A DNA stretch of 63,927 nt, counting the filler, from Thermoplasmatota archaeon (GTDB lineage: Archaea; Thermoplasmatota; E2; JACPAO01; JAHFTW01): NCBI GenBank assembly GCA_041623215.1. It is 6 parts of 6 records of this genome, joined end to end, with 100 filler letters (N's around TTAATTAATTAA, not from the genome) between each part and the next. Parts side by side here need not be neighbours in the genome. Positions count along the whole stretch, not along the records: positions 11,022 to 21,792 come from JBFJXH010000058.1; 5 more parts are not named here. One strand, 5' to 3'. The notes under the pieces are model-generated. The model saw nothing but the letters and a program-made list of their open reading frames with translations. It had not been told where the DNA came from and searched no databases. Numbering within the stretch: the first letter of the stretch is position 1; every line of letters begins with the position of its first letter. This document shows positions 11,022-21,792 of this stretch, one piece after another. Both the position numbers and the translations under genes were made by a program.

Positions 11022-14000
11022 GCAATGTAATCGGCGACGGCGCGAAGCGTCGGGTAGTCCTTGATTTGCAAGCCATCCTGAAGCGGCACCTCATACGCCT
11101 CGCGAATCAAACCAAACAACTCCGCCTGCTTCACCGTATCAATCCCCAAATCCGCCTCCATGTCCAAATCAGGCTCCAGCAACTCTACCGGGTAGCCGGT
11201 CTTTTCGGCGACCAGTTTTGTCAATTGGGCGAGGACCGCGTCCGAATCCACGGCAGCGGCTGGCTCGGCGGTTGGTGCAGCTACGGGCGGCGAGGCGACA
11301 GCTTCCTCAATCGGAGATGGCGTTAGCGCTGAGTCAGACTCGACTTGGGCGACGGCGGGCGGCGGCTCGACATCGATCGTTTCAGCGCGGGCCCGCAGTT
11401 GGCGGTTTTCGACGAACAGGGCGGCTCGATTGGCGTTGACGGTGCTTCCAAGCCAAGCCTCGTATTGCATAGCATCGGCGACGCGTTCATTCTCACGGGC
11501 AACCAACTGCGTTAGCGTCATGGCGACTTGACTTCCGAAGCCCGCTGCCAAACGAACGGCATAACGAACATCCACCTCACCGCCATCGCTCAGACGGAGA
11601 TTGCCAAGCTCAGGGTCGGCATCACGGAAGTTGGCAATCGGGGGCGCCCGTCCACGTTGCAGACACTTGAGGGCGATGGCGTCCTCAACCCCGGCACCTT
11701 GCGGGTGTCCCGTGAAACCCTTGGTGTTGGCAATCGTTACCTGGTCAGCTGCGTCTCCAAATGCCTGGCGCAAGGCAGCGATTTCAGCCGAGGCACTTCC
11801 GCCTCGAGCCGGCGTGTAGGTTTCATGGCTCATGAAGAGGGTTTCACCGGCAATGGCGGCCGGGTCAAGTCCACTGGCTTGCACAAGCGCTCGCATCTCG
11901 GCCGCAATGTGAGCCACATCCAAACGGCTACCGTGGAAGGCAGAATTACTGATGCGTGTGGCCAACAGCCGTGCGATGGGCCGCATGCCCCGACTCGTGA
12001 TGCTTGCCTCATCCTCAACGACCAAGCCGACGGCCCCCATCCCCACAATCATTCCGTGGCGGCGTCGGTCAAACGGCAACGCTGCTTCGGCCACATCTTC
12101 CTTGGTCGTTGCAGCGCCAGCGGCTAGGAAACCTGCACCAATCCACTCAAAGAGGGCGTCGCTCGTTACATCGTCGGCGCCAATGACCACCACGCGGCGA
12201 GCTCGCCCGGTACGAATCCAATCCTCGGCGATGCCGATGGCTTGCGTCGTGCTAGCGCAGGCAGCGTTAACCTGCGTGTTAGGGCCACGCGCGCCAATGA
12301 ATTGCGCAAATTGCGAATGGCCCATGCTGAGAATGTGGAACAAGAAGCGGCGGTCAAACTCGCCGCCTGCCCGAATACGTTCGACCTCACGTAGAAGAGC
12401 GTCGTGGCCGGGAAACGCACTGGCAAAGATAATCCCCGTGTCATCCCGCATCGATGCAGGAAGCATCCAAGGACCTGGAAGGCGACTTCCCGTGCTGGTT
12501 GTCTTCCAAGTCTGAACTAGGGGAATCCCGGCGTCGCGGAGCGCTTCCAGACCGGCCGCCATGGCGTACTGGGTCGTTCGATCGAGCGTTTCAGTCAAGC
12601 CGGATGGAATACCAAACTCGGCTGCGTCAAACGAGCCGGCTTGCCCGGCCAGCCGGATTACTTGATCCGTTGCCGTAATTGCCTCAAAGTCTGCTGAACC
12701 GTCGTCGCCCTTGCGAAGCCGCGTGATTTTCTTGCCGACAAGTCGCGCGCGCGTGCTCTCGTCAACCGCATCGATAAGGTTCTCACCCGCCAAAATTCGG
12801 TCGAAGTTGTCGGGGTCAAATACTGACTTGTTGCGGCCGGGAAGCCCCACACTCACGCCACTCACAGCGACCGAAACGCGCTCCGGTACAGCCGCCTCAA
12901 GTGGCCGCCCTCCGGCATGGGCCGGCATGGAAATCGGGCGCGAATTGCCTGCTCCCGGACGGTTATCCGGCCGCATGAACGCCGCTCTGGGATCCAGATG
13001 TTCAGCAGTATAAACGGCCCCGTCTTGCAGGCTTGGCAATTGGGGCTCATAGCCCCATGCTCCCAGGAAAGCAAACAATTCGTTGACGTGTGTGATGCCA
13101 CCCTTTTTGGGATGATTGCTGGCGATGGCTACGCTGCCGCCTTTGCCCTGCAGGATGTCGTTGGCAAATCCGGTAAGGGCCTTCTTGGGACCAACTTCAA
13201 TGAAGGTTCGAACACCATCCTCGAACATTTTCTCCACGATGCCAATCCATTCAACGGGCGAGGCCACCTGCTTCGCTAAGTTGTCGCGAATCGCTTCCGG
13301 GTCATCGGGATAATCTGCGGCACCCACATTGCTGATTACCCGAACACTGGGAGGTTGGACGTTCAAGCGGCCTAGAACACGGCGCAGCGGTTCACTGGCG
13401 GGAGCGACGATGCTTGAATGGAATGCCGCTGAAACGGGCAGTTCAACAACCGAGAGGCCGCGCGACTCACAAGCTGACATCGCCTTGATGACGGCTTCGC
13501 TGGCGCCGGCAATGACGGTCTGGCTGGGGCAATTCTTGTTGGCGGGAATAACGTAGCCATCCACGTTGGCAATGGCGTCTTGCACCGTTTGCCAATCCGC
13601 AGAGACGCTTGCCATCTTGCCGAGATCGGGTACGTCCACGCCAGCCATCTCGCGGCCCCGCGCCGCCACCGCATGCAGCGCGTCTTCGAAGCTGAGGACC
13701 TCCGCCGCCACGAGCGCACCGTATTCACCCAGGCTGTGCCCAGCGACCACATCAGGCTGGATGCCCCATTGGCGGAGCAACCGAAGCAGGGCAACATCCG
13801 CCGCCAACACGGCCGGCTGCGTAAATTCTGTCAGTCGCAATTTTTCTTCCGCGGCCTTGCGCGTGTCGGGTGTGTCCGGCGTTGGCCAGATGACATCCGT
13901 CAATTTGCAGCCAATTTCGGATTCCAAGACGCGATCGGCCTCGCGGAAGGTTTCCGCAACCACCCGGTATTTGGCCGCCAAATCCCGGCACATGCCAACA

Positions 14001-15913
14001 TACTGAGTGCCTTGGCCGGGGAAGAGAAACGCCACCTTGCCCTTGGGCTTACCTTGGCCCAAGAAGACACCCTGATTGAACGCGAGGCGCCCCGCTCCCT
14101 TGGGGTCCGCCATGGCACGTTCGGCAAGTGCCAGGCGCTTGGGCACGTCTGCAGGATCGGCGACTTCGAAGCCCACCCGCTGCTCGGCAAGAACGCCGTG
14201 GGCAGTGACACCGTGCAGACGGTCACGAAGGCGGGGTCCTTCGCCATTGGCTGCAAAGGATACGGCCCCAAGTTCCGCGCCTACACCGGGCGCATCGAGC
14301 GCCGAAGCCACCAGTGGCTCTGCTTCCAGCATGGCGCCACCGGCGGCCATGTGTGCGGCAAACGCTCCTTGGTCAAACGTAGCAGCGCCTGCTTCTACCG
14401 GGATAGCGGCCGCTTCGACTTCGCCTGCCAAAGCAAGGTCATCCGGCATGGCATTGGTGGCTTCCTCCAGCACTACGTGGAAGTTTGTGCCGCCAAATCC
14501 GAAGGACGATACGGCTGCACGGCGCGGGTGATGGGGCGGGCGGGGGAACTCTTGCACTTCCCGGGCGACGGTGAAGGGCGCTGTATCCCATTGGATGCGT
14601 GGATTGAGCGTTTCGACGTTCAGGCTCGGGGGAATTCGTCCATGCTTCAAGCAAAGGGCGGTCTTCAGGACGCCGGCCGCACCTGCGGCAGCCTTGAGGT
14701 GGCCAATGTTGCTCTTGACGGAACCGACCGCAATGCTACCCGGTGCAGCGCTTGCTTGTGCATCGACAAAAGCGGCCGCCACCGACTCCAGTTCTGTTGG
14801 GTCCCCAACCGGGGTGCTTGTTCCATGCGCTTCGAGGTAACCGATGGTTGCCGGGTCAATGCCGGCTGCTTCGTACGCGCGACGCACGGCCTTGACCTGC
14901 CCCGCCGGATTGGGCGCTGTAATTCCCTTGCCCTTGCCATCACTGCTGGCGCCGATGCCGCGAATCGTGGCATACACTTGGTCACCGTTGGCTAGGGCAT
15001 CCGACAAGCGCTTGAGGACGAACATGGCACAGCCTTCGCCCATGACAAAACCATTGGCGGCCGCATCAAAGGGCCGCGAGCCGTCCGGGGACAACGCTCC
15101 AATCTTGCTGAATTGGATGTAAGCCGTTACGTCCATGGAACGGTCACTACCGCCCCAGACGACCACATCGTTTTCGCCCCGGCGCAAGGTATCCACGGCA
15201 GCATCAAGGGCGGCCAAGCTGCTAGCGCAAGCTGCGTCGGTCGTGAAGTTCTTGCCGCCGAGGTCGAACGCGTTGGCAATGCGCCCGGCGGCCACATTGC
15301 TCAGATGCCCAGGCATGGTGTCTTCGGTGACTGGATTTGTGTTTGCCTTGAACGTCGTCTCCACGCGTTCGAGAACGGCGTCCCGACGCGAGTCCGGCAG
15401 GGCCTGGAAATCGGGGTCCGCCCGCAAGGCGGCTGCGACTTCGGGCCAGTAGAGACGCTTGCTCACGGCTTTTTGGATTTCTCCACCCATCGCGTTTCCG
15501 AGGATGACGGCGCAGCGATCACGGTCGAAGGCCGCGCCATCGTCGCCCCGTAGTCCTGTTGCCAGCCCCGCGTCCAGCAATGCCTGCCGGGTGGCCGATA
15601 GCGCCCAGCGCTGGCTAGCATCCACCTGATTGACCACGTTGGGTGGCATGCGATAGGCCAAGCCGTCGAAGGCATCATCCATGACGAAAGCCCCAATCTT
15701 GGCGTACGTCTTGTCGGCTGCCTTACGGTCGTCCGACCAAAACAAGTCGGGGTCCCAGCGGTCCTTGGGCACCTCGCGGATGCTCGAGCGGCCGGCGAGC
15801 AGGTTGTTCCAAAAGGTGGCAACATCGGGTGCATCAGGCAAGACACAGCCGGCGCCGACGATGGCAATGGGTTCGTTCGGATGCGAGCGGGGGGACGGAG
15901 TCATAGTGGACAT
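11022..15913 (-). CDS. Type I polyketide/fatty-acid synthase (KS-AT-KS-ACP...), 3'-truncated at contig end
   Basis: KS1 about 15875-14460 (DAACASS, EAHGTST, KSNIGHL, SSFGFGGTN). AT about 14040-13060 (FPGQG, GHSLG, SAAFHS). KS2 about 12880-11510 (NAACAST, SHETYT, TKGFTGH, GFGS). Pro/Ala/Glu linker, then ACP about 11245-11022 (KTGYP, DLGIDTVKQ). Confidence 0.93.
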
Positions 15914-16011
15914 GGTATCCAGGGTGCGGTTGGCGGAATCGGAAAGAGGCAGGGGAAGGTGGAACAGGTAAGGGCAGTCTGGCGACGGCCAGCGAGACCA
16001 GCTTGATGCGG

Positions 16012-17715
16012 CTACAGGGGCGTGAGCCCGTGCTTTTTCTCCGGACGTGTCTCCCGCTTGTTGAGAGCGGGAAGCAGCGCGGCGATGAGGCGCGGGCGGG
16101 TTTCGCGAGGCTCGATGATATCGTCAATCCACCCTCGTTCTGCTGCCACGTAGGGGTTGTTGAAGGCCTCCTGGTATTCCTGCGTGAACGCCTCCTTGAG
16201 GCGAGCCGCTTCTTCGGGGTCGTCCTCCGCCAGGGCCGCCAGCTTGCGCTTGTGAATGATTTCCACGGCGCCACTTGCACCCATGACGGCGATTTCGGCG
16301 GCAGGCCAGCTGAGATTGCAGTCGGTGCCCACGTGCTTCGAGCCCATGACGATGTAGGCGCCGCCGTAGGACTTGCGTAGCACGACGCTCAGTTTGGGCA
16401 CGGTCGCCTCGCAATAGGCATACAGCAATTTGGCGCCGTTGCGGATGATGCCGCCATGTTCTTGGCCAAGTCCCGGCAGGAATCCAGGCACGTCTACGAA
16501 GCTGATGATGGGGATGTTGAAGGCATCACAGAAGCGAATGAATTTGGCGCCCTTGATGCTGGCTTCGATGTCCAAGGCGCCGGCGAGGACGGCGGGTTGG
16601 TTGGCGACAATTCCAACTGGGACACCGGCCATGCGGCCAAAGCCCACGACGAGGTTTTGGGCCCAGCGCGGTTGCACCTCGAAGAAGCTTCCCACATCCA
16701 CCACGTGATCCACGACGTCCCGAACATCGTACGGCTTTCCTGGGTCGGATGGAACCAGGGTGTCCAATTCGGGGTCGCGGCGGTCAGCCGGGTCTTCGGC
16801 CTCGACGATTGGCAATTCGCCGAGATTGTTGCTGGGCAAGTAGCTCAGCAATTTCCGAATAAGGGCGATGGAGCCATCCTCATCCAGACCACTGAAACTT
16901 GCCACGCCAGACTTGATTTCATGCACCGTTGCCCCGCCCAGCTCTTCCTGGGTTGCCTCTTCCCCGGTGACCGTTTTGACCACGTCGGGGCCAGTGACGA
17001 ACATGTGGCTCGTCTTGTCTGTCATGATGACGAAGTCGGTCAGCGCAGGCGAATAGACGGCGCCGCCGGCGCTGGGGCCGACAATGACGGAGATTTGCGG
17101 AACTACGCCGCTTGCTTCGACATTCTTGAAGAAAATGTCCCCATACCCGGCAAGACTGGCAACGCCCTCTTGGATCCGCGCGCCGCCCGAGTCATTGAAG
17201 CCTATGACGGGGGCCCCCATTTGCATGGCCTGCTTGAGTGTCTTGGCAATCTTTTGGCCGGTTGCGTGGCCCAGGCTGCCACCAAGCACCGTGAAGTCTT
17301 GCGAATAAACGAACACGAGGCGACCGTCAATGGTGCCGTGGCCGCATACCACGCCGTCGCCGTCAAACCGATTCTTGTCGAGTCCAAACGTGGTCGCTTG
17401 GGTCCGCACGAACGGGTCCATCTCAACGAAGGTCCCTGCATCTAGGAGAAGTTCGATGCGTTCTCGTGCCGTGTACTTGCCTTTGGCATGTTGGGATTCG
17501 ATGCGCTTGGCGCCACCGCCTTGCAGGGCCTTGGCCTTGCGCTCGCGAAGCGCGTCGATGGCACTCGCGCTCCCACTTGCCCCTGCATCGTGGTTTGGCT
17601 GCGTGTCGTCCGCTCTACCGCGCAGGCTGTCAGGTTGGAGGACCACTGGTTCAGAGGCCCCGTTACTGGCCGCCGATTCGTCCGCGCTGGGCGAGGCGGG
17701 CGTGGTTGGACTCAT
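16012..17715 (-). CDS. Acyl-CoA carboxylase carboxyltransferase subunit (PccB/AccD family)
   Basis: GKYTARERI, QDFTVLGGSLG, DSGGARIQEG, DVPGFLPG, RKSYGGAY, KKHG C-terminus. Confidence 0.95.
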   Translation of the reverse strand: MSPTTPASPSADESAASNGASEPVVLQPDSLRGRADDTQPNHDAGASGSASAIDALRERKAKALQGGGAKRIESQHAKGKYTARERIELLLDAGTFVEMDPFVRTQATTFGLDKNRFDGDGVVCGHGTIDGRLVFVYSQDFTVLGGSLGHATGQKIAKTLKQAMQMGAPVIGFNDSGGARIQEGVASLAGYGDIFFKNVEASGVVPQISVIVGPSAGGAVYSPALTDFVIMTDKTSHMFVTGPDVVKTVTGEEATQEELGGATVHEIKSGVASFSGLDEDGSIALIRKLLSYLPSNNLGELPIVEAEDPADRRDPELDTLVPSDPGKPYDVRDVVDHVVDVGSFFEVQPRWAQNLVVGFGRMAGVPVGIVANQPAVLAGALDIEASIKGAKFIRFCDAFNIPIISFVDVPGFLPGLGQEHGGIIRNGAKLLYAYCEATVPKLSVVLRKSYGGAYIVMGSKHVGTDCNLSWPAAEIAVMGASGAVEIIHKRKLAALAEDDPEEAARLKEAFTQEYQEAFNNPYVAAERGWIDDIIEPRETRPRLIAALLPALNKRETRPEKKHGLTPL

Positions 17716-17739
17716 GGGTTTGGCCCGGCTAAGGCGCTA

Positions 17740-17850
17740 CTTGAACCTTATCTTGACAAGGGGGGCGCAGCGTCGGCTCACCGCGAGATAGATTTCGGCG
17801 TTTGACGAGGGTTTGCCTTGACGTATCAGATTGACTCGAACATGTCAAGG
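17740..17850 (-). promoter_or_regulatory. Promoter region of the carboxyltransferase-PKS unit: TTCAAG box plus clustered TTGAC/GTCAA half-sites
   Basis: Minus-strand TTCAAG at 17740-17745 (25-30 nt before ATG 17715). TTGAC at 17753, 17802, 17818 and 17831; GTCAA at 17844. Confidence 0.45.
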
Positions 17851-17889
17851 GTCGATGGTGGGCCGGGGTGACGCCAGAAGGCGGCCCGG

Positions 17890-18252
17890 TCAGCGAGCCA
17901 ACAGCACAACGCCCAGGACAATCAGGGCCGCCCCGGCAAGTTTGGGCGCCGTCATTGCCTCGCCGAACCACAAGGCGCTGGCAACGAAGACCAGCACCAG
18001 CCCCAAGCTCGTCATGGTGGGATAGGCCACTGATAGTTGGATGCGCGTCAGGGCGAAGCTGTAGAACGCGAGGGCCAGCGCGAAGCTGACGATGCCCGCT
18101 ACTAGCCACCCGTCCGTGTAAAGCCGGGCGAGGCTACGGGCCGTGGCTACGCCATCGCCGTTTCTGGCAGCGACCTTGAGCAGGATGTTGGCCGTGGCGT
18201 TCAGGACTAAGCCAACGCCCAAGCTCCCCCAATGGAGGACCCCCGCCTGCAT
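17890..18252 (-). CDS. SMR/EamA (DMT) small membrane protein, candidate lipid-phospho-sugar flippase
   Basis: 4 TM, ANILLK, LSVAYP and FGE motifs. ATG overlaps the upstream TGA (TGATG), with GGAGGT before it. Confidence 0.8.
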   Translation of the reverse strand: MQAGVLHWGSLGVGLVLNATANILLKVAARNGDGVATARSLARLYTDGWLVAGIVSFALALAFYSFALTRIQLSVAYPTMTSLGLVLVFVASALWFGEAMTAPKLAGAALIVLGVVLLAR

Positions 18253-19709
18253 CAAGTGACCTCCCTCTGCAGCCACCACGGCAGCCCCACATTGCCTCGC
18301 TTGGTCTTGGCATCCACGAGGCCAGTCCGGCGACCCAATTCGCTCGTGAACTGGCCCTCCGGGTCCAAGCGGTCGCGGATCTTCCGCCAACGGTCCAGCT
18401 GCGGGTACATCGCGGCGACCGTGTCCACATCCATGCACGCATCCTTGGCCAGATAATTTCGCCCCCCATGCGCCAATACTATGGCATCAAGATCTTTGCA
18501 AAATGCGTGAACGCCCGGTTTGGCTGGCATGTCGAGAGCGAGCGTTGCGCCTGGCATGGGGAAGCTGAGCGGCGCCTGCGGCTCGCCGTTACCAAAGCGC
18601 TTGAGGACCGCTAACGGGCTACTTCGTCCGGCCCGGGCCACCTTGGCCAAGATCGCCCGCAAACCTTCCCGCTCTGCATCTGGTGGCAGGACACATTGGT
18701 ATTGGATGAAGCCACGACGCCCATACAAACGGTTCCACTTACCAATGGCATCCAACGGATAGAAATAGGGCAGCATAGGCACCACATGCTTGCCTTCCTT
18801 GGCACGCCCGTAGTAGGCAGCATTGAAGCCTCGGACGGTCCAACGATTCAGGCCCCACCCCGGTGCGTTAAGCGGTATGCCCGGCCGCCGCGGGGGGCGG
18901 AGGGCCAGCGGCTCGTCGGTGGCGGGCACATCATCGGGCGCAGCGTGGTCCGCTTGCATGAGAACCGACCGACCTAGCTGGTCGCCCTTCGCGGCGCAAT
19001 CAATCCAAGCCATGGAGCATTGGAAATCTTGGTCGGTCGCGTGAAAAGCGTCGAGAGCCGCATCGAGATTGGGCGCCTTTGTTGTGGTGGAAGACATCCA
19101 CGCAGACCCAATTGGTTGCAATGCCAGCGTCACATCTAGGATGACACCGGTAAGGCCCATGCCCCCAAGAGTCGCAAAGTAAGCCTCCTTGTTACGGTGG
19201 CGCGTGCAGCGTAGGAGGCGCCCACGGCCATCAAGCAGAGTAAAGGCCAGAACATGCCGACCAAAGGAACCAGCCTCGTGGTGATTCTTGCCGTGCACAT
19301 CCGCGGCGACCGCCCCGCCAAGCGTCACAAACCAGGTGCCAGGGGTTACGGGCAAGAACCAACCGCGCGGCCCGAACGTGGTCACGATTGCCTGCAGGCT
19401 AAGGCCCGCCTCAGCCCGAAGGACTCCTGTTTCCTCGTTCCAGTCAAGGACACCGTCAAGCGCCGTCAAATCCACCACGCCCCCGTTGCCGACGCTGTTG
19501 AGTGCGGCGTCCCCATACGACCGGCCGAGCCCACGGGGAATCATGGGCGCCGCGTGCCGGGTCGCATACGGGACGTCGTCGCGACTCGGTGGCCGCATGA
19601 CGTCGCAGTCCAAGCGGGGATGATTACCCCAGCCCGATAGTCGCTCGCGTGACGCCATGCCAGGTGGCGCCTCCTCATCGAGCGTTGTACGTCCTGCGGA
19701 CCGGCTCAT
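18252..19709 (-). CDS. DprE1-like FAD-binding oxidoreductase (prenyl-phosphoribose 2'-oxidase family)
   Basis: RGLGRSYGD, VTPGTWFVTLGGAVAADVHGKNHH, FIQYQ, LKRFG, LSFP, YLAKD. ATGA overlap with the ubiA-like stop; alternative start at 19658. Confidence 0.88.
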   Translation of the reverse strand: MSRSAGRTTLDEEAPPGMASRERLSGWGNHPRLDCDVMRPPSRDDVPYATRHAAPMIPRGLGRSYGDAALNSVGNGGVVDLTALDGVLDWNEETGVLRAEAGLSLQAIVTTFGPRGWFLPVTPGTWFVTLGGAVAADVHGKNHHEAGSFGRHVLAFTLLDGRGRLLRCTRHRNKEAYFATLGGMGLTGVILDVTLALQPIGSAWMSSTTTKAPNLDAALDAFHATDQDFQCSMAWIDCAAKGDQLGRSVLMQADHAAPDDVPATDEPLALRPPRRPGIPLNAPGWGLNRWTVRGFNAAYYGRAKEGKHVVPMLPYFYPLDAIGKWNRLYGRRGFIQYQCVLPPDAEREGLRAILAKVARAGRSSPLAVLKRFGNGEPQAPLSFPMPGATLALDMPAKPGVHAFCKDLDAIVLAHGGRNYLAKDACMDVDTVAAMYPQLDRWRKIRDRLDPEGQFTSELGRRTGLVDAKTKRGNVGLPWWLQREVT

Positions 19710-20569
19710 GCCACGCTTCCTGCCTGGAGAACGAGCCACATGCTCAGTAGGCCATACGCCAGCACCGTGGCCAACAGTGGCCAGTCGCGCACCAGCGCTT
19801 CCGTGGGTGATTCCCCAGCCGCCGTGTGCTCAACAATGAACCAGTAGCGAAACACGCCGAGTAGAACAAGCGGCAGCGTCGGCGTAAGCTCGGGGCGCAC
19901 GGTCGCAACAAAGAAGCCATAGAACACCACCGTGCTGGTGGCTGCTACTACGGCGTAGCGGTCGAGAAGAGGCAAGGTGTAGGACCCGAGGACGGAGCGT
20001 GCCTCTGGGCCCTGATGCTCCAACTCGGCTCGTCGTTTCATGACCACCAAGAAGAGACTCAGGGAAAGCGTCGCCACGAGCATCCAGTTGCTGACGGCGA
20101 CGGCGATGGCCGCAGCTCCGCCGTAAACCCGGAGCACAAAACCCGCGCTCACAGCAAACAAGTCCAGGACGGGCACTTGCTTCAATCCGATGCTGTAAGC
20201 AACGTTGAGGACAATGTAGCCCGCTGCGAAGGCAGCCACCTTGGGCATGAACCATGCACCGATGGCGCCGGCCGCAATGAGGGCCACGAGCACGGCCAAG
20301 GCGACCTGCGGACTAACGGCACCACTTGCCAGCGGGCGGTGGCGCTTGTCTGGATGCCGCGCGTCTGCCTCGCGGTCACGAAGATCATTGACCACGTACA
20401 CCGCACTTGCCGCCACCGTGAACAGAGCCACCGCGGCCAGCGCCGACAGCGTCGAAGGCACATCGCTAAAGCGGCCGCTGAAGATCAACGGGGCCAATAC
20501 GAAGGCGTTCTTGATCCACTGCTGGGGCCGCAGCAGGCGGATGACGGCGGGCATGCCTCCGTCGCTCAC
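19706..20569 (-). CDS. UbiA-family decaprenyl/polyprenyl-phosphate phosphoribosyltransferase (Rv3806c-like)
   Basis: LLRPQQWIKN, YVVNDLRDREADARHPDKRHRPLASG, GFVLRV, KRRAEL, GESPTE. GGAGGT SD and TTTTCAAG box at 20591-20598. Confidence 0.9.
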   Translation of the reverse strand: MSDGGMPAVIRLLRPQQWIKNAFVLAPLIFSGRFSDVPSTLSALAAVALFTVAASAVYVVNDLRDREADARHPDKRHRPLASGAVSPQVALAVLVALIAAGAIGAWFMPKVAAFAAGYIVLNVAYSIGLKQVPVLDLFAVSAGFVLRVYGGAAAIAVAVSNWMLVATLSLSLFLVVMKRRAELEHQGPEARSVLGSYTLPLLDRYAVVAATSTVVFYGFFVATVRPELTPTLPLVLLGVFRYWFIVEHTAAGESPTEALVRDWPLLATVLAYGLLSMWLVLQAGSVA

Positions 20570-20692
20570 GAACCTCCACTTGGAGCCCTGCTTGAAAACA
20601 CGGCGGTCCGTTCACAGACCCCTTTGGGCAACGCGCGTGGGCCGTCAGCACGCCAAGCGTAGCGTGCGCCGTAGTCATCATCAGCCCCGGCG

Positions 20693-21792
20693 CTACGGAG
20701 TCCAGCCAAGGGGGCGAAGCTCGTAGGCATGCATCAGACCGTACGGCCGCGTGGCATTGACACGCCAGCCCTCAGCTTCCAGGAGGTCAATGACCGCGTC
20801 GCCGTCAATGACGTGGTCAATCACCAACCAAGCCTGCGTTTCGTTGGCTAGCCAGTTGCGCACATAGGGCCCCGACTCATCCATGTCCCTGGTGCGATGC
20901 AACCCGATGACACTGCGCAGGTTCAGATCATCTCTCGTTTGATAGTATTCGAAGACGCAGAACCAATCATCGTCGCGACGGTCATCACAAAGCCCCTCGT
21001 GGAACAATACGTAGGCCCCGGGGTACGCGTGCGTTTCAATGTCGGCCGTCATGCCACGCCAATCCCAGCGAGCAGGATGCCTTGTTTCGCCTACGCCATC
21101 CAGACTTCCGACCAACAAAAGGACAAGAAACACCGGCGCGACCAGACGCGCGGGGACGCGCATGGCACCGCGAACCACCAGCAGAATAAGCGCGGGGAGC
21201 GCCAGGACCGCGTAGCGAGGGGTGAAGATCGGTGGCCCCACCAATGAAAAAAGAAGGGGCAGTAACACGCCTGCCGTCCACCAAATAACCGGTAAGGCAG
21301 CCCCCTTGCGCCAGCGCCAAAGACCCCAAGTAACCAGGATGGCCCACAGGGGCGCAATGAGGTAACTACCGGCTTGCCACCGCACGGTTGCCATCAGGTC
21401 GTCGATGCTTGGCGGGGGAATCCAGAACCCCTGGGACACCCGATTGGCGCGGTCCAAGAAGACGAGGCCATACCAAGGCAAGGCAGCAATGGCTAGGGCC
21501 ACATGCGCCCACCACCAATGTCGCGGGAGGCCGGGAAGCCAAGCAAGGACGGGGGAACGCCACCCCGATGTGGCCGGCGCCGGCTCACCTTCCTTGGGAA
21601 TTTCGGGAGGTGCGCGATTGCTTGCAGGTCCAGTTTCGACGTGCTCAGCCGGCGAGAATTGGCTCGCCAAGGTGGCTGTCGGCGGCGGGTCAAGGCCGTC
21701 ATGCCAGGCCCACCAGGCGGCAGTCAACACGTGCGCCAGGGCGATGAAGAGGCCAAACACGTGCGTATGAATGAGCAGGAACAGTAGCGCCA
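20693..21792 (-). CDS. GT-C fold membrane glycosyltransferase (GT39/PMT/ArnT-like), 5'-truncated
   Basis: Frame open to the contig end. IHTHVFG motif, multiple TMs, FWIPPP, PIFTPRY, DWRG and an extracellular C-terminal domain. Confidence 0.7.

What the first reader, a model, noticed from the sequence alone, without database searches (positions are those of the whole stretch)
11022..17715. Type I PKS/FAS megasynthase with KS-AT-KS-ACP order, paired with an acyl-CoA carboxyltransferase, in an apparent archaeon
Seen: one ORF of more than 1600 aa has KS1 (Cys codon 15227-15229, EAHGTST, NIGH), an AT (GHSLG, SAAFHS), a second complete KS (Cys codon 12257-12259, SHETYT, FTGH) and an ACP. It lies about 100 nt downstream of a co-oriented PccB/AccD gene. 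Established: canonical modules and PfaA run KS-AT-ACP or KS-AT-reductive-ACP, chain-length factors lack the catalytic Cys, and archaea generally lack ACP-dependent fatty-acid synthesis. Inference: two catalytically intact, dissimilar KS domains sharing one AT suggest division of labour (priming vs elongation, or condensation of two acyl chains), fed by a dedicated carboxylase. This could be an undescribed route to long-chain acyl lipids in Thermoplasmatota. The promoter box before the carboxyltransferase matches those on contigs with archaeal markers, arguing against simple contamination.
Basis: partly seen in the sequence, partly recalled or inferred. Interest (0 to 1): 0.92.

Follow-up and report, generated by a model that had tools for sequence, protein, structure and literature searches.

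The report
Archaeal fatty-acid synthase with threonine carriers
An uncultured archaeon carries, as a normal inherited gene, a giant bacterial-style fatty-acid-building enzyme whose carrier arms have threonine where such enzymes normally need serine, which suggests an unusual way of switching the enzyme on and a route to fatty-acid lipids in archaea.

Summary
The gene continues over two more contigs as KS1-AT-KS2-ACP(≥2)-KR-DH-PPTase, between a carboxyltransferase and BioY, biotin carboxylase and BCCP genes. It is native: 29 of 30 same-order genomes have it, 0 of 10 other same-class genomes do, and 131 of 401 phylum genomes do. The layout is not new. It is the uncharacterised 'Type R' synthase catalogued in bacteria in 2011, with KS2 labelled a chain-length factor; this scan had already met it in other bacteria and archaea.

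New here:
(1) The carrier domains have threonine at the phosphopantetheine site (785 of 793 domains), while single-KS PfaA-like controls keep serine (21 of 25). The fused PPTase looks intact and is the only one found in the genome.
(2) The missing enoyl reductase is a separate FabI, found with the synthase in 100 of 101 FabI-positive genomes.
(3) The order encodes both G3P/acyltransferase and G1P/GGGP lipid genes.

Best reading: an iterative, fully reducing fatty-acyl synthase on threonine-linked carriers that feeds ester lipids. The product is untested, and a specialised lipid remains a serious rival.

The parts
16012..17715 (-). PccB/AccD-type carboxyltransferase, with Ile at the position of Streptomyces PccB residue 422; the genome's paralog on C4 has Asp there
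   Evidence: adjacent to the synthase in 13 of 13 relatives
11022..15913 (-). 5' 1630 codons of the Type R megasynthase. It continues off-window on C179 (second ACP, KR, DH) and C37 (PPTase), about 2850 aa in all with two ACPs
14453..15874 (-). KS1, type I/PfaA-like, with Cys229, His363 and His405
13154..14038 (-). AT domain with Ser727 (GHSLG) and AAFH
11474..12886 (-). KS2, FabF-like, with Cys1219, His1363, Lys1398 and His1403 invariant in 97 of 97 aligned sequences
11024..11227 (-). first ACP domain
11135..11137 (-). Thr1593 codon (ACG) at the phosphopantetheine attachment position, where canonical ACPs have Ser
17831..17848 (-). palindromic operator-like site TTGAC-N8-GTCAA, 133 nt upstream of the carboxyltransferase start. 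Its 16-mer core is the only exact match in the genome and sits at the same place in G001, G007 and G022
17738..17749 (-). BRE/TATA-like box (weak match)

Best explanation
An iterative, fully reducing type I fatty-acyl synthase of the Type R family, working on threonine-linked carriers. Steps: (1) the operon's carboxyltransferase, biotin carboxylase and BCCP make malonyl-CoA from acetyl-CoA, with BioY importing biotin (genes shown; substrate inferred, about 0.75). (2) The fused Sfp-type PPTase attaches phosphopantetheine to the Thr of the tandem ACPs (Thr and intact PPTase shown; reaction inferred, about 0.85). (3) AT loads malonyl. KS1 and KS2 both condense, most likely KS1 in the early rounds and the FabF-like KS2 in the late rounds (residues shown; activity about 0.85; the split of roles is a guess modelled on the recalled division of labour in PUFA synthases). 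(4) KR and DH act in cis, and a separately encoded FabI reduces the enoyl (linkage shown; about 0.9). (5) Saturated long acyl chains are handed to GpsA-derived glycerol-3-phosphate by PlsB/PlsC-type acyltransferases, giving ester lipids alongside the archaeal G1P ether lipids (inferred, about 0.55; the release step is unknown).
For: Domain set and catalytic residues. FabI orthologue at G000:C163. It lies next to the synthase in G001, G046, G072, G308, G044 and in Poseidoniales- and Heimdall-labelled records. Among 401 phylum genomes, 100 have both, 1 has FabI only, 31 have the synthase only and 269 have neither; in family f13 the same 13 of 38 genomes have both (counted by hand). Where FabI is missing, the 3 loci checked from f23 and f33 have an N-terminal FabK-like domain; the 1 locus checked from f39 does not. 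Chloroflexota and Actinomycetota loci instead have an upstream acyl-CoA-dehydrogenase-like gene (21 of 80 loci). Acyltransferase PF01553 is in 130 of 131 synthase-positive and 37 of 270 synthase-negative genomes. GpsA is in 29 of 30 order genomes and 0 of 10 outside. No other PP-binding domain or PPTase was found in G000, G005, G072 or G044; no FabH over cut-off or separate FabZ in 5 genomes. Thr in 785 of 793 ACP domains, with all four Thr codons used and no other conserved Ser in the domain.
Against: No product, expression or biochemistry is available. There is no thioesterase or other release domain in the synthase. No clear CdsA in G000 (weak partial hits only) and no PlsY in 5 of 5. The PlsB-like gene scores far below the NCBIfam cut-off and was found in only 15 of 401 genomes. 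All 5 bacterial carriers tested have AcpP and FabF over cut-off, so in bacteria the family coexists with FAS II, as a specialised-lipid enzyme would; FabZ was over cut-off in 0 of 5. The order keeps EgsA and GGGP synthase, so it does not need fatty acids for a membrane. The genomes are related and the co-occurrence counts are not independent. I recall that Ser-to-Thr mutants of E. coli ACP are poor PPTase substrates (recalled, not checked).
Confidence: 0.52

Rival explanations
1. The enzymology is the same (Thr carriers, two active KS, separate FabI), but the product is a specialised lipid such as a very-long-chain, diol, hydroxy or head-to-head condensed chain for a surface or storage lipid. 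It is not glycerol-3-phosphate ester lipid.
For: Bacterial carriers keep AcpP and FabF. Shulse and Allen class the family among secondary lipid synthases (passages). A second KS could serve a final condensation. No clear CdsA in G000.
Against: No tailoring gene is conserved in the archaeal operon. WS/DGAT and FAR families were not found in 26 genomes, but the controls were silent, so this is weak. The acyltransferase and GpsA distributions follow the synthase.
Confidence: 0.31
2. The Thr carriers are not phosphopantetheinylated, or KS2 is a non-catalytic chain-length factor, so the enzyme works in another way (for example on CoA thioesters) or with one KS only.
For: Ser is the canonical site in the solved ACPs aligned. 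The 2011 paper labels the domain CLF. KS2 has an invariant Glu after the first His (HET), unlike FabF.
Against: The PPTase keeps the Sfp H90, D107, E109, E151 and K155 equivalents and has no other carrier to act on in 4 of 5 genomes tested. ACPs are kept in 3-4 copies in the 28 closest homologues. One two-KS synthase has Ser in all copies at the same column. KS2 Cys, His, Lys and His are invariant in 97 of 97, and its model has the FabF fold (pLDDT 94).
Confidence: 0.09
3. A partly reducing synthase that makes a polyene or polyketide, as enediyne PKSE enzymes do (KS-AT-ACP-KR-DH-PPTase without ER; layout recalled).
For: There is no ER domain in the polypeptide and no FabK-like gene in G000. 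The PPTase is fused at the C-terminus.
Against: FabI tracks the synthase almost one to one and is often adjacent. Other lineages carry other reductase-like partners. No thioesterase or tailoring genes are conserved.
Confidence: 0.07
4. A bacterial contig was mis-binned into an archaeal genome.
For: The family is common in Chloroflexota and Myxococcota, and the assembly has 223 contigs.
Against: 29 of 30 order genomes carry it. The window's sequence falls in a clade of its own family (support 100), sister to the same-genus genome. SUF genes lie upstream in 8 of 13 relatives and on the overlapping contig C36. Composition is ordinary.
Confidence: 0.01

Closest known systems
Type R secondary lipid synthase (Shulse and Allen 2011, PMC3098273; Koribacter, Solibacter, Elusimicrobium, Roseiflexus)
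   Same: Domain order KS-MAT-(KS-like)-ACPn-KR, an associated PPTase and linkage to carboxylase genes (passages). A Roseiflexus-labelled homologue is 44% identical over KS1-AT and 53% over KS2. No known product.
   Different: The 'CLF' keeps Cys-His-His, a DH follows KR, the PPTase is fused, the host is archaeal and the ACPs carry Thr. The Roseiflexus- and Elusimicrobiaceae-labelled homologues also carry Thr. 'Threonine' and 'archaea' do not occur in the paper's main text.
PfaA of PUFA synthases (TIGR02813)
   Same: KS1-AT, tandem ACPs, KR and DH; best NCBIfam hit.
   Different: Scores below the cut-off (669 against 1010 for the window part). An extra FabF-like KS is inserted, there are no PfaB/C/D partners, and the ACPs have Thr where PfaA-like proteins have DSIKRVE.
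FabF (type II elongating ketosynthase)
   Same: Closest solved relative of KS2 by sequence and fold, with the catalytic residues aligned.
   Different: About 24% identity; embedded in a megasynthase; HET motif.
ACP-independent archaeal fatty-acid synthase complex of Sulfolobus (bioRxiv 10.1101/2024.07.05.601840)
   Same: A route to fatty acids in archaea.
   Different: That route uses CoA and a ketothiolase. [quoted passage not shown] This system depends on ACP and malonyl-CoA.
Mixed lipid gene sets of Marine Group II and Asgard archaea (PMC6461757, PMC7852524)
   Same: G3P dehydrogenase and ester-forming genes occur beside archaeal lipid genes (passages).
   Different: Those groups are reported to lack G1P dehydrogenase, whereas this order has both EgsA and GpsA. 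PMC6461757 has no occurrence of 'polyketide', 'PKS' or 'acyl carrier' in its main text.

Membership tests
Type R secondary lipid synthase | single pfaA homologue with order KS-MAT-CLF(KS-like)-ACPn-KR | tested here: met
   definition
Type R secondary lipid synthase | 3-6 tandem ACPs | tested here: inconclusive
   Two in the assembly. About double depth and an alternative loose end on the first ACP hint at a collapsed third copy. The 28 closest homologues have 3 (23) or 4 (5).
Type R secondary lipid synthase | downstream PPTase with the hShxH-type motif | tested here: met
   Fused at the C-terminus instead of a separate gene; VTITH motif
Type R secondary lipid synthase | homology to the named members' proteins | tested here: inconclusive
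   Full-layout homologues labelled Roseiflexus sp. and Elusimicrobiaceae were found; the five type-strain proteins themselves were not retrieved
PfaA / PUFA synthase (Types A, B) | TIGR02813 cut-off, and pfaB/C/D partners | tested here: not met
Chain-length factor (for KS2) | loss of the catalytic Cys | tested here: not met
   Cys invariant in 97 of 97
Canonical ACP (PF00550) | carrier-protein profile match | tested here: met
Canonical ACP (PF00550) | Ser at the attachment site | tested here: not met
   Thr in 785 of 793 domains; aligns without gaps to the Ser of DLGADS
Canonical ACP (PF00550) | covalent phosphopantetheine on that residue | not testable with these tools
   needs mass spectrometry
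Self-contained FAS I | ER and a release domain in the polypeptide | tested here: not met
   neither found in full-length homologues or in C179/C37
FabI enoyl-ACP reductase (partner on C163) | best family match and Tyr-x6-Lys motif | tested here: inconclusive
   The top 12 NCBIfam hits are FabI models, all below their cut-offs; GYRVMGTAK motif present

The most novel reading that the evidence does not exclude
A whole family of megasynthases uses phosphopantetheine on threonine, a carrier chemistry I did not find in print. About a third of the Thermoplasmatota genomes sampled, including the lineages that group with Marine Group II, use this enzyme to make fatty acids de novo. In this order the chains go onto glycerol-3-phosphate beside G1P ether lipids, giving a natural mixed, heterochiral membrane in an archaeon.
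Probability: 0.4. Interest if true: 0.94.

Novelty: new variant of a known kind. Interest (0 to 1): 0.8.

Why it matters
Recent work still states that archaea lack FAS I, a complete FAS II and, nearly always, ACP. A complete ACP-dependent gene set in 131 of 401 Thermoplasmatota genomes, with homologues in Heimdall-labelled records, gives the lipid-divide question a specific enzyme to test. A threonine attachment site would widen what counts as an active carrier domain, since annotation by the Ser motif would call these carriers dead. It may also insulate the synthase from housekeeping PPTases (inference). It can be tested with one small domain and one mass spectrum, and cultured Roseiflexus offers a native host.

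Tried and rejected
- FabK/PfaD-type reductase in this order: only short TIM-barrel fragments in 41 genomes (best E 1.5e-8), and none in G000 with the family's own profile.
- The Chloroflexota acyl-CoA-dehydrogenase partner has no orthologue in G000, only generic hits of about 35%.
- The SMR, DprE1-like and UbiA genes upstream (17890-20569) are not part of the unit: none in 13 relatives' loci, apart from one 28% DprE1-like hit.
- PlsY 0 of 5. WS/DGAT and FAR 0 of 26 with silent controls.
- The sigma-70 promoter scan found nothing and does not apply to archaea.
- No RNA holder was listed. Runs X3 and X4 hold only small shares. No contig spans all of C179.
- The complex predictor was not available, so a KS1-KS2 pairing is untested. 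No model of the ACP was obtained.
- Paper searches with no relevant hit: KS-AT-KS; Asgard/Poseidoniales with synthase terms; Type R follow-ups (71); archaeal type I PKS with ACP (72); threonine with phosphopantetheine (82, 83; one hit opened, about a KS Cys-to-Thr change). The library lacks most subscription papers, so this does not show that nothing is in print.
- The PccB specificity paper was not held, so the meaning of residue 422 is recalled.
- The tree is FastTree, midpoint-rooted, with 16 rows left out as near-duplicates or to thin dense groups. It supports inheritance within the family but says nothing firm on donor or direction of transfer.
Full report
1. Observation. The window is six contigs joined by spacers, and 11022-21792 is contig C58 of a 1.94 Mb, 223-contig genome (88% complete, 0.04% contamination). 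The carboxyltransferase gene ends 98 nt upstream. C58 has ordinary GC and tetranucleotide composition.

2. The whole gene. It continues on C179 (141-nt exact overlap; second ACP, KR, DH) and ends on C37 (186-nt overlap, 98.4%) with a PPTase domain. KR (SGGAQGI, YAAAN), DH (His and Glu motifs) and PPTase (Sfp H90, D107, E109, E151, K155 equivalents) look intact. Downstream on the same strand come BioY, biotin carboxylase, BCCP and an enoyl-CoA hydratase. Full-length homologues on single contigs have the same order. Contigs of two public runs show about double depth over the first ACP, and one has an alternative continuation; this is a weak hint of a collapsed third ACP. The 28 closest homologues have 3 or 4.

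3. Native to archaea. The synthase was found in 29 of 30 same-order genomes and 0 of 10 genomes of other orders in the class. Its KS2 was found in 131 of 401 genomes drawn across the phylum: f31 58 of 58, f23 20 of 20, f1 17 of 18, f15 9 of 9, f13 13 of 38. The closest homologues with names are labelled Thermoplasmatota. In a KS1+KS2 FastTree of 93 rows the window sits in a clade of its own family (100), sister to the same-genus genome. The f31 and f13 rows group with Poseidoniales-labelled records. Heimdall-labelled, Chloroflexota, Actinomycetota and Myxococcota rows form other groups, and the backbone is unresolved. The carboxyltransferase is adjacent in 13 of 13 relatives examined, BC and BCCP follow in 10, BioY in 7, and SUF genes precede in 8. 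The genome has G1P dehydrogenase and GGGP synthase over their cut-offs.

4. What is known. Earlier notes of this scan pointed me to Type R, and I checked the paper (PMC3098273, passages; supplements not seen). It defines Type R as KS-MAT-CLF-ACP(3-6)-KR plus a downstream PPTase in five bacteria, with product unknown. A Roseiflexus-labelled homologue aligns at 44% and 53%. So the layout is catalogued, and the scan had also met it in Marine Group II and Heimdall genomes. [quoted passage not shown] My ten searches found no characterisation of the family and no description of it in archaea (listings seen).

5. KS2 is not a chain-length factor by sequence. Cys, His, Lys and His are invariant in 97 of 97 aligned KS2 domains. 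The closest solved sequences and folds are FabF, and the model has pLDDT 94. KS1 is type I/PfaA-like and equally conserved. No FabH over cut-off was found in 5 genomes. Which KS does which rounds is not shown.

6. Threonine carriers. The ACP motif is DLG[IV]D-T-VKQAE. The Thr aligns without gaps to the attachment Ser of PigH and AcpP-type carriers. With that column masked, a profile found 793 domains in 211 of 212 family proteins: 785 Thr, 1 Ser, 3 gaps and 4 other residues, with no other column above 16% Ser. These proteins came from two searches and are rich in Chloroflexota. In the loci the count was 356 Thr to 3 Ser, some loci overlapping, and a looser pattern found one more Ser. All four Thr codons are used. 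As a control I took the best 150 representatives at 50% identity. Proteins with KS2 were Thr-type in 63 of 64, single-KS PfaA-like proteins were Ser-type in 21 of 25, and fragments without a KS were 42 Thr and 19 Ser. That set was found with a Thr-bearing profile, so only the contrast between architectures counts. The one all-Ser two-KS protein is labelled Heimdallarchaeota. In G000, G005, G072 and G044 the synthase's ACPs are the only PP-binding domains found and there is one PPTase; G007 has a separate NRPS/PKS island with its own. I infer that the Thr is modified. I found no paper on this and no earlier scan note among those shown.

7. The missing reductase. G000 has an orthologue on C163, 62% identical to the one beside a Heimdall-labelled synthase. 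It was found in 101 of the same 401 genomes, 100 of which have the synthase; 31 synthase-positive genomes lack it. Three loci checked from two of those families have an N-terminal FabK-like domain, and one from a third family does not. Chloroflexota and Actinomycetota loci have an acyl-CoA-dehydrogenase-like neighbour. Three different reductase-like partners argue that the enoyl step matters and that the chain is saturated (inference).

8. Substrate and fate. The operon carboxyltransferase has Ile at PccB position 422 in every archaeal operon copy that matched the pattern, and the C4 paralog has Asp. I recall that Asp-to-Ile lets PccB accept acetyl-CoA; that paper was not available. GpsA is in 29 of 30 order genomes and 0 of 10 outside. 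PF01553 acyltransferases are in 130 of 131 synthase-positive and 37 of 270 synthase-negative genomes. Against a membrane role: no PlsY, no clear CdsA, a PlsB-like gene confined to 15 genomes, no release domain, and AcpP plus FabF in 5 of 5 bacterial carriers. Related genomes are not independent, so these counts are descriptive.

9. Regulation. A palindrome at 17831-17848 has a 16-mer core that is the only exact match in the genome and is identical upstream of the same gene in three other genomes (3 of 5 searched). A 2-mismatch copy lies 65 nt before an acyl-CoA dehydrogenase on C5. A fatty-acyl-responsive regulator is a guess. Sulfolobus FadR binds a 16-bp dyad motif (PMC6449355, passages), but I did not see its sequence.

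10. Verdict. The feature is real and native, and it belongs to the Type R family by layout. It works like an iterative fatty-acid synthase with a separate FabI. The family is known but uncharacterised; the threonine carriers and the complete, order-wide archaeal pathway are the new parts. Novelty: new variant of a known kind. Interest 0.8.

Noticed in passing
window 17890-20569 (-), continuing on G000:C36: SMR/ArnE-like flippase, DprE1-like FAD oxidase and UbiA-type decaprenyl-phosphate phosphoribosyltransferase-like genes, with PMT-family glycosyltransferases nearby: a lipid-linked pentose glycosylation cassette inserted between the SUF genes and the synthase operon in this genome only.
   Followed up: partly
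window 17831-17848; G000:C5 near 13102: Conserved palindromic operator shared with an acyl-CoA dehydrogenase gene near ETF genes; regulator not identified.
   Followed up: partly
L172:10833-17258 (G089, family f23): A 2142-aa ORF right after the synthase matches both biotin carboxylase and carboxyltransferase, so it is probably a single-chain acetyl-CoA carboxylase.
   Followed up: no
L034 (G007:C1 about 340-365 kb): An NRPS/PKS hybrid island with ordinary Ser carriers and its own PPTase in an archaeon of the same family.
   Followed up: no
L053, L069, L076, L081, L105, L109, L110, L172, L174, L176 N-termini: The fused FabK-like domains mostly lack the His after the G-x-E-x-G-G motif in the alignment. 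Whether they are active reductases is open.
   Followed up: no
P0232, P0286, P0288, P0336: Single-KS synthases that also have Thr carriers, so the trait extends a little beyond the two-KS family.
   Followed up: no
L171, L173, and Myxococcota loci such as L037, L039, L050, L053: Permuted layouts with an ACP before KS1 or between AT and KS2; the rare Ser carriers seen in L050, L064 and L114 are the copy just before KS2.
   Followed up: no
family f13 in the phylum sample: 21 genomes have the acyltransferase but neither synthase nor FabI; those listed are the smaller ones (1.2-1.6 Mb), which would fit loss of synthesis with scavenging of fatty acids.
   Followed up: no
L036, L039, L041, L050, L059, L063, L100, L114: Records labelled Enterobacterales or Klebsiella fall among Myxococcota sequences where they were placed in the tree (6 of these 8 rows), so the submitters' labels are probably wrong.
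   Followed up: no
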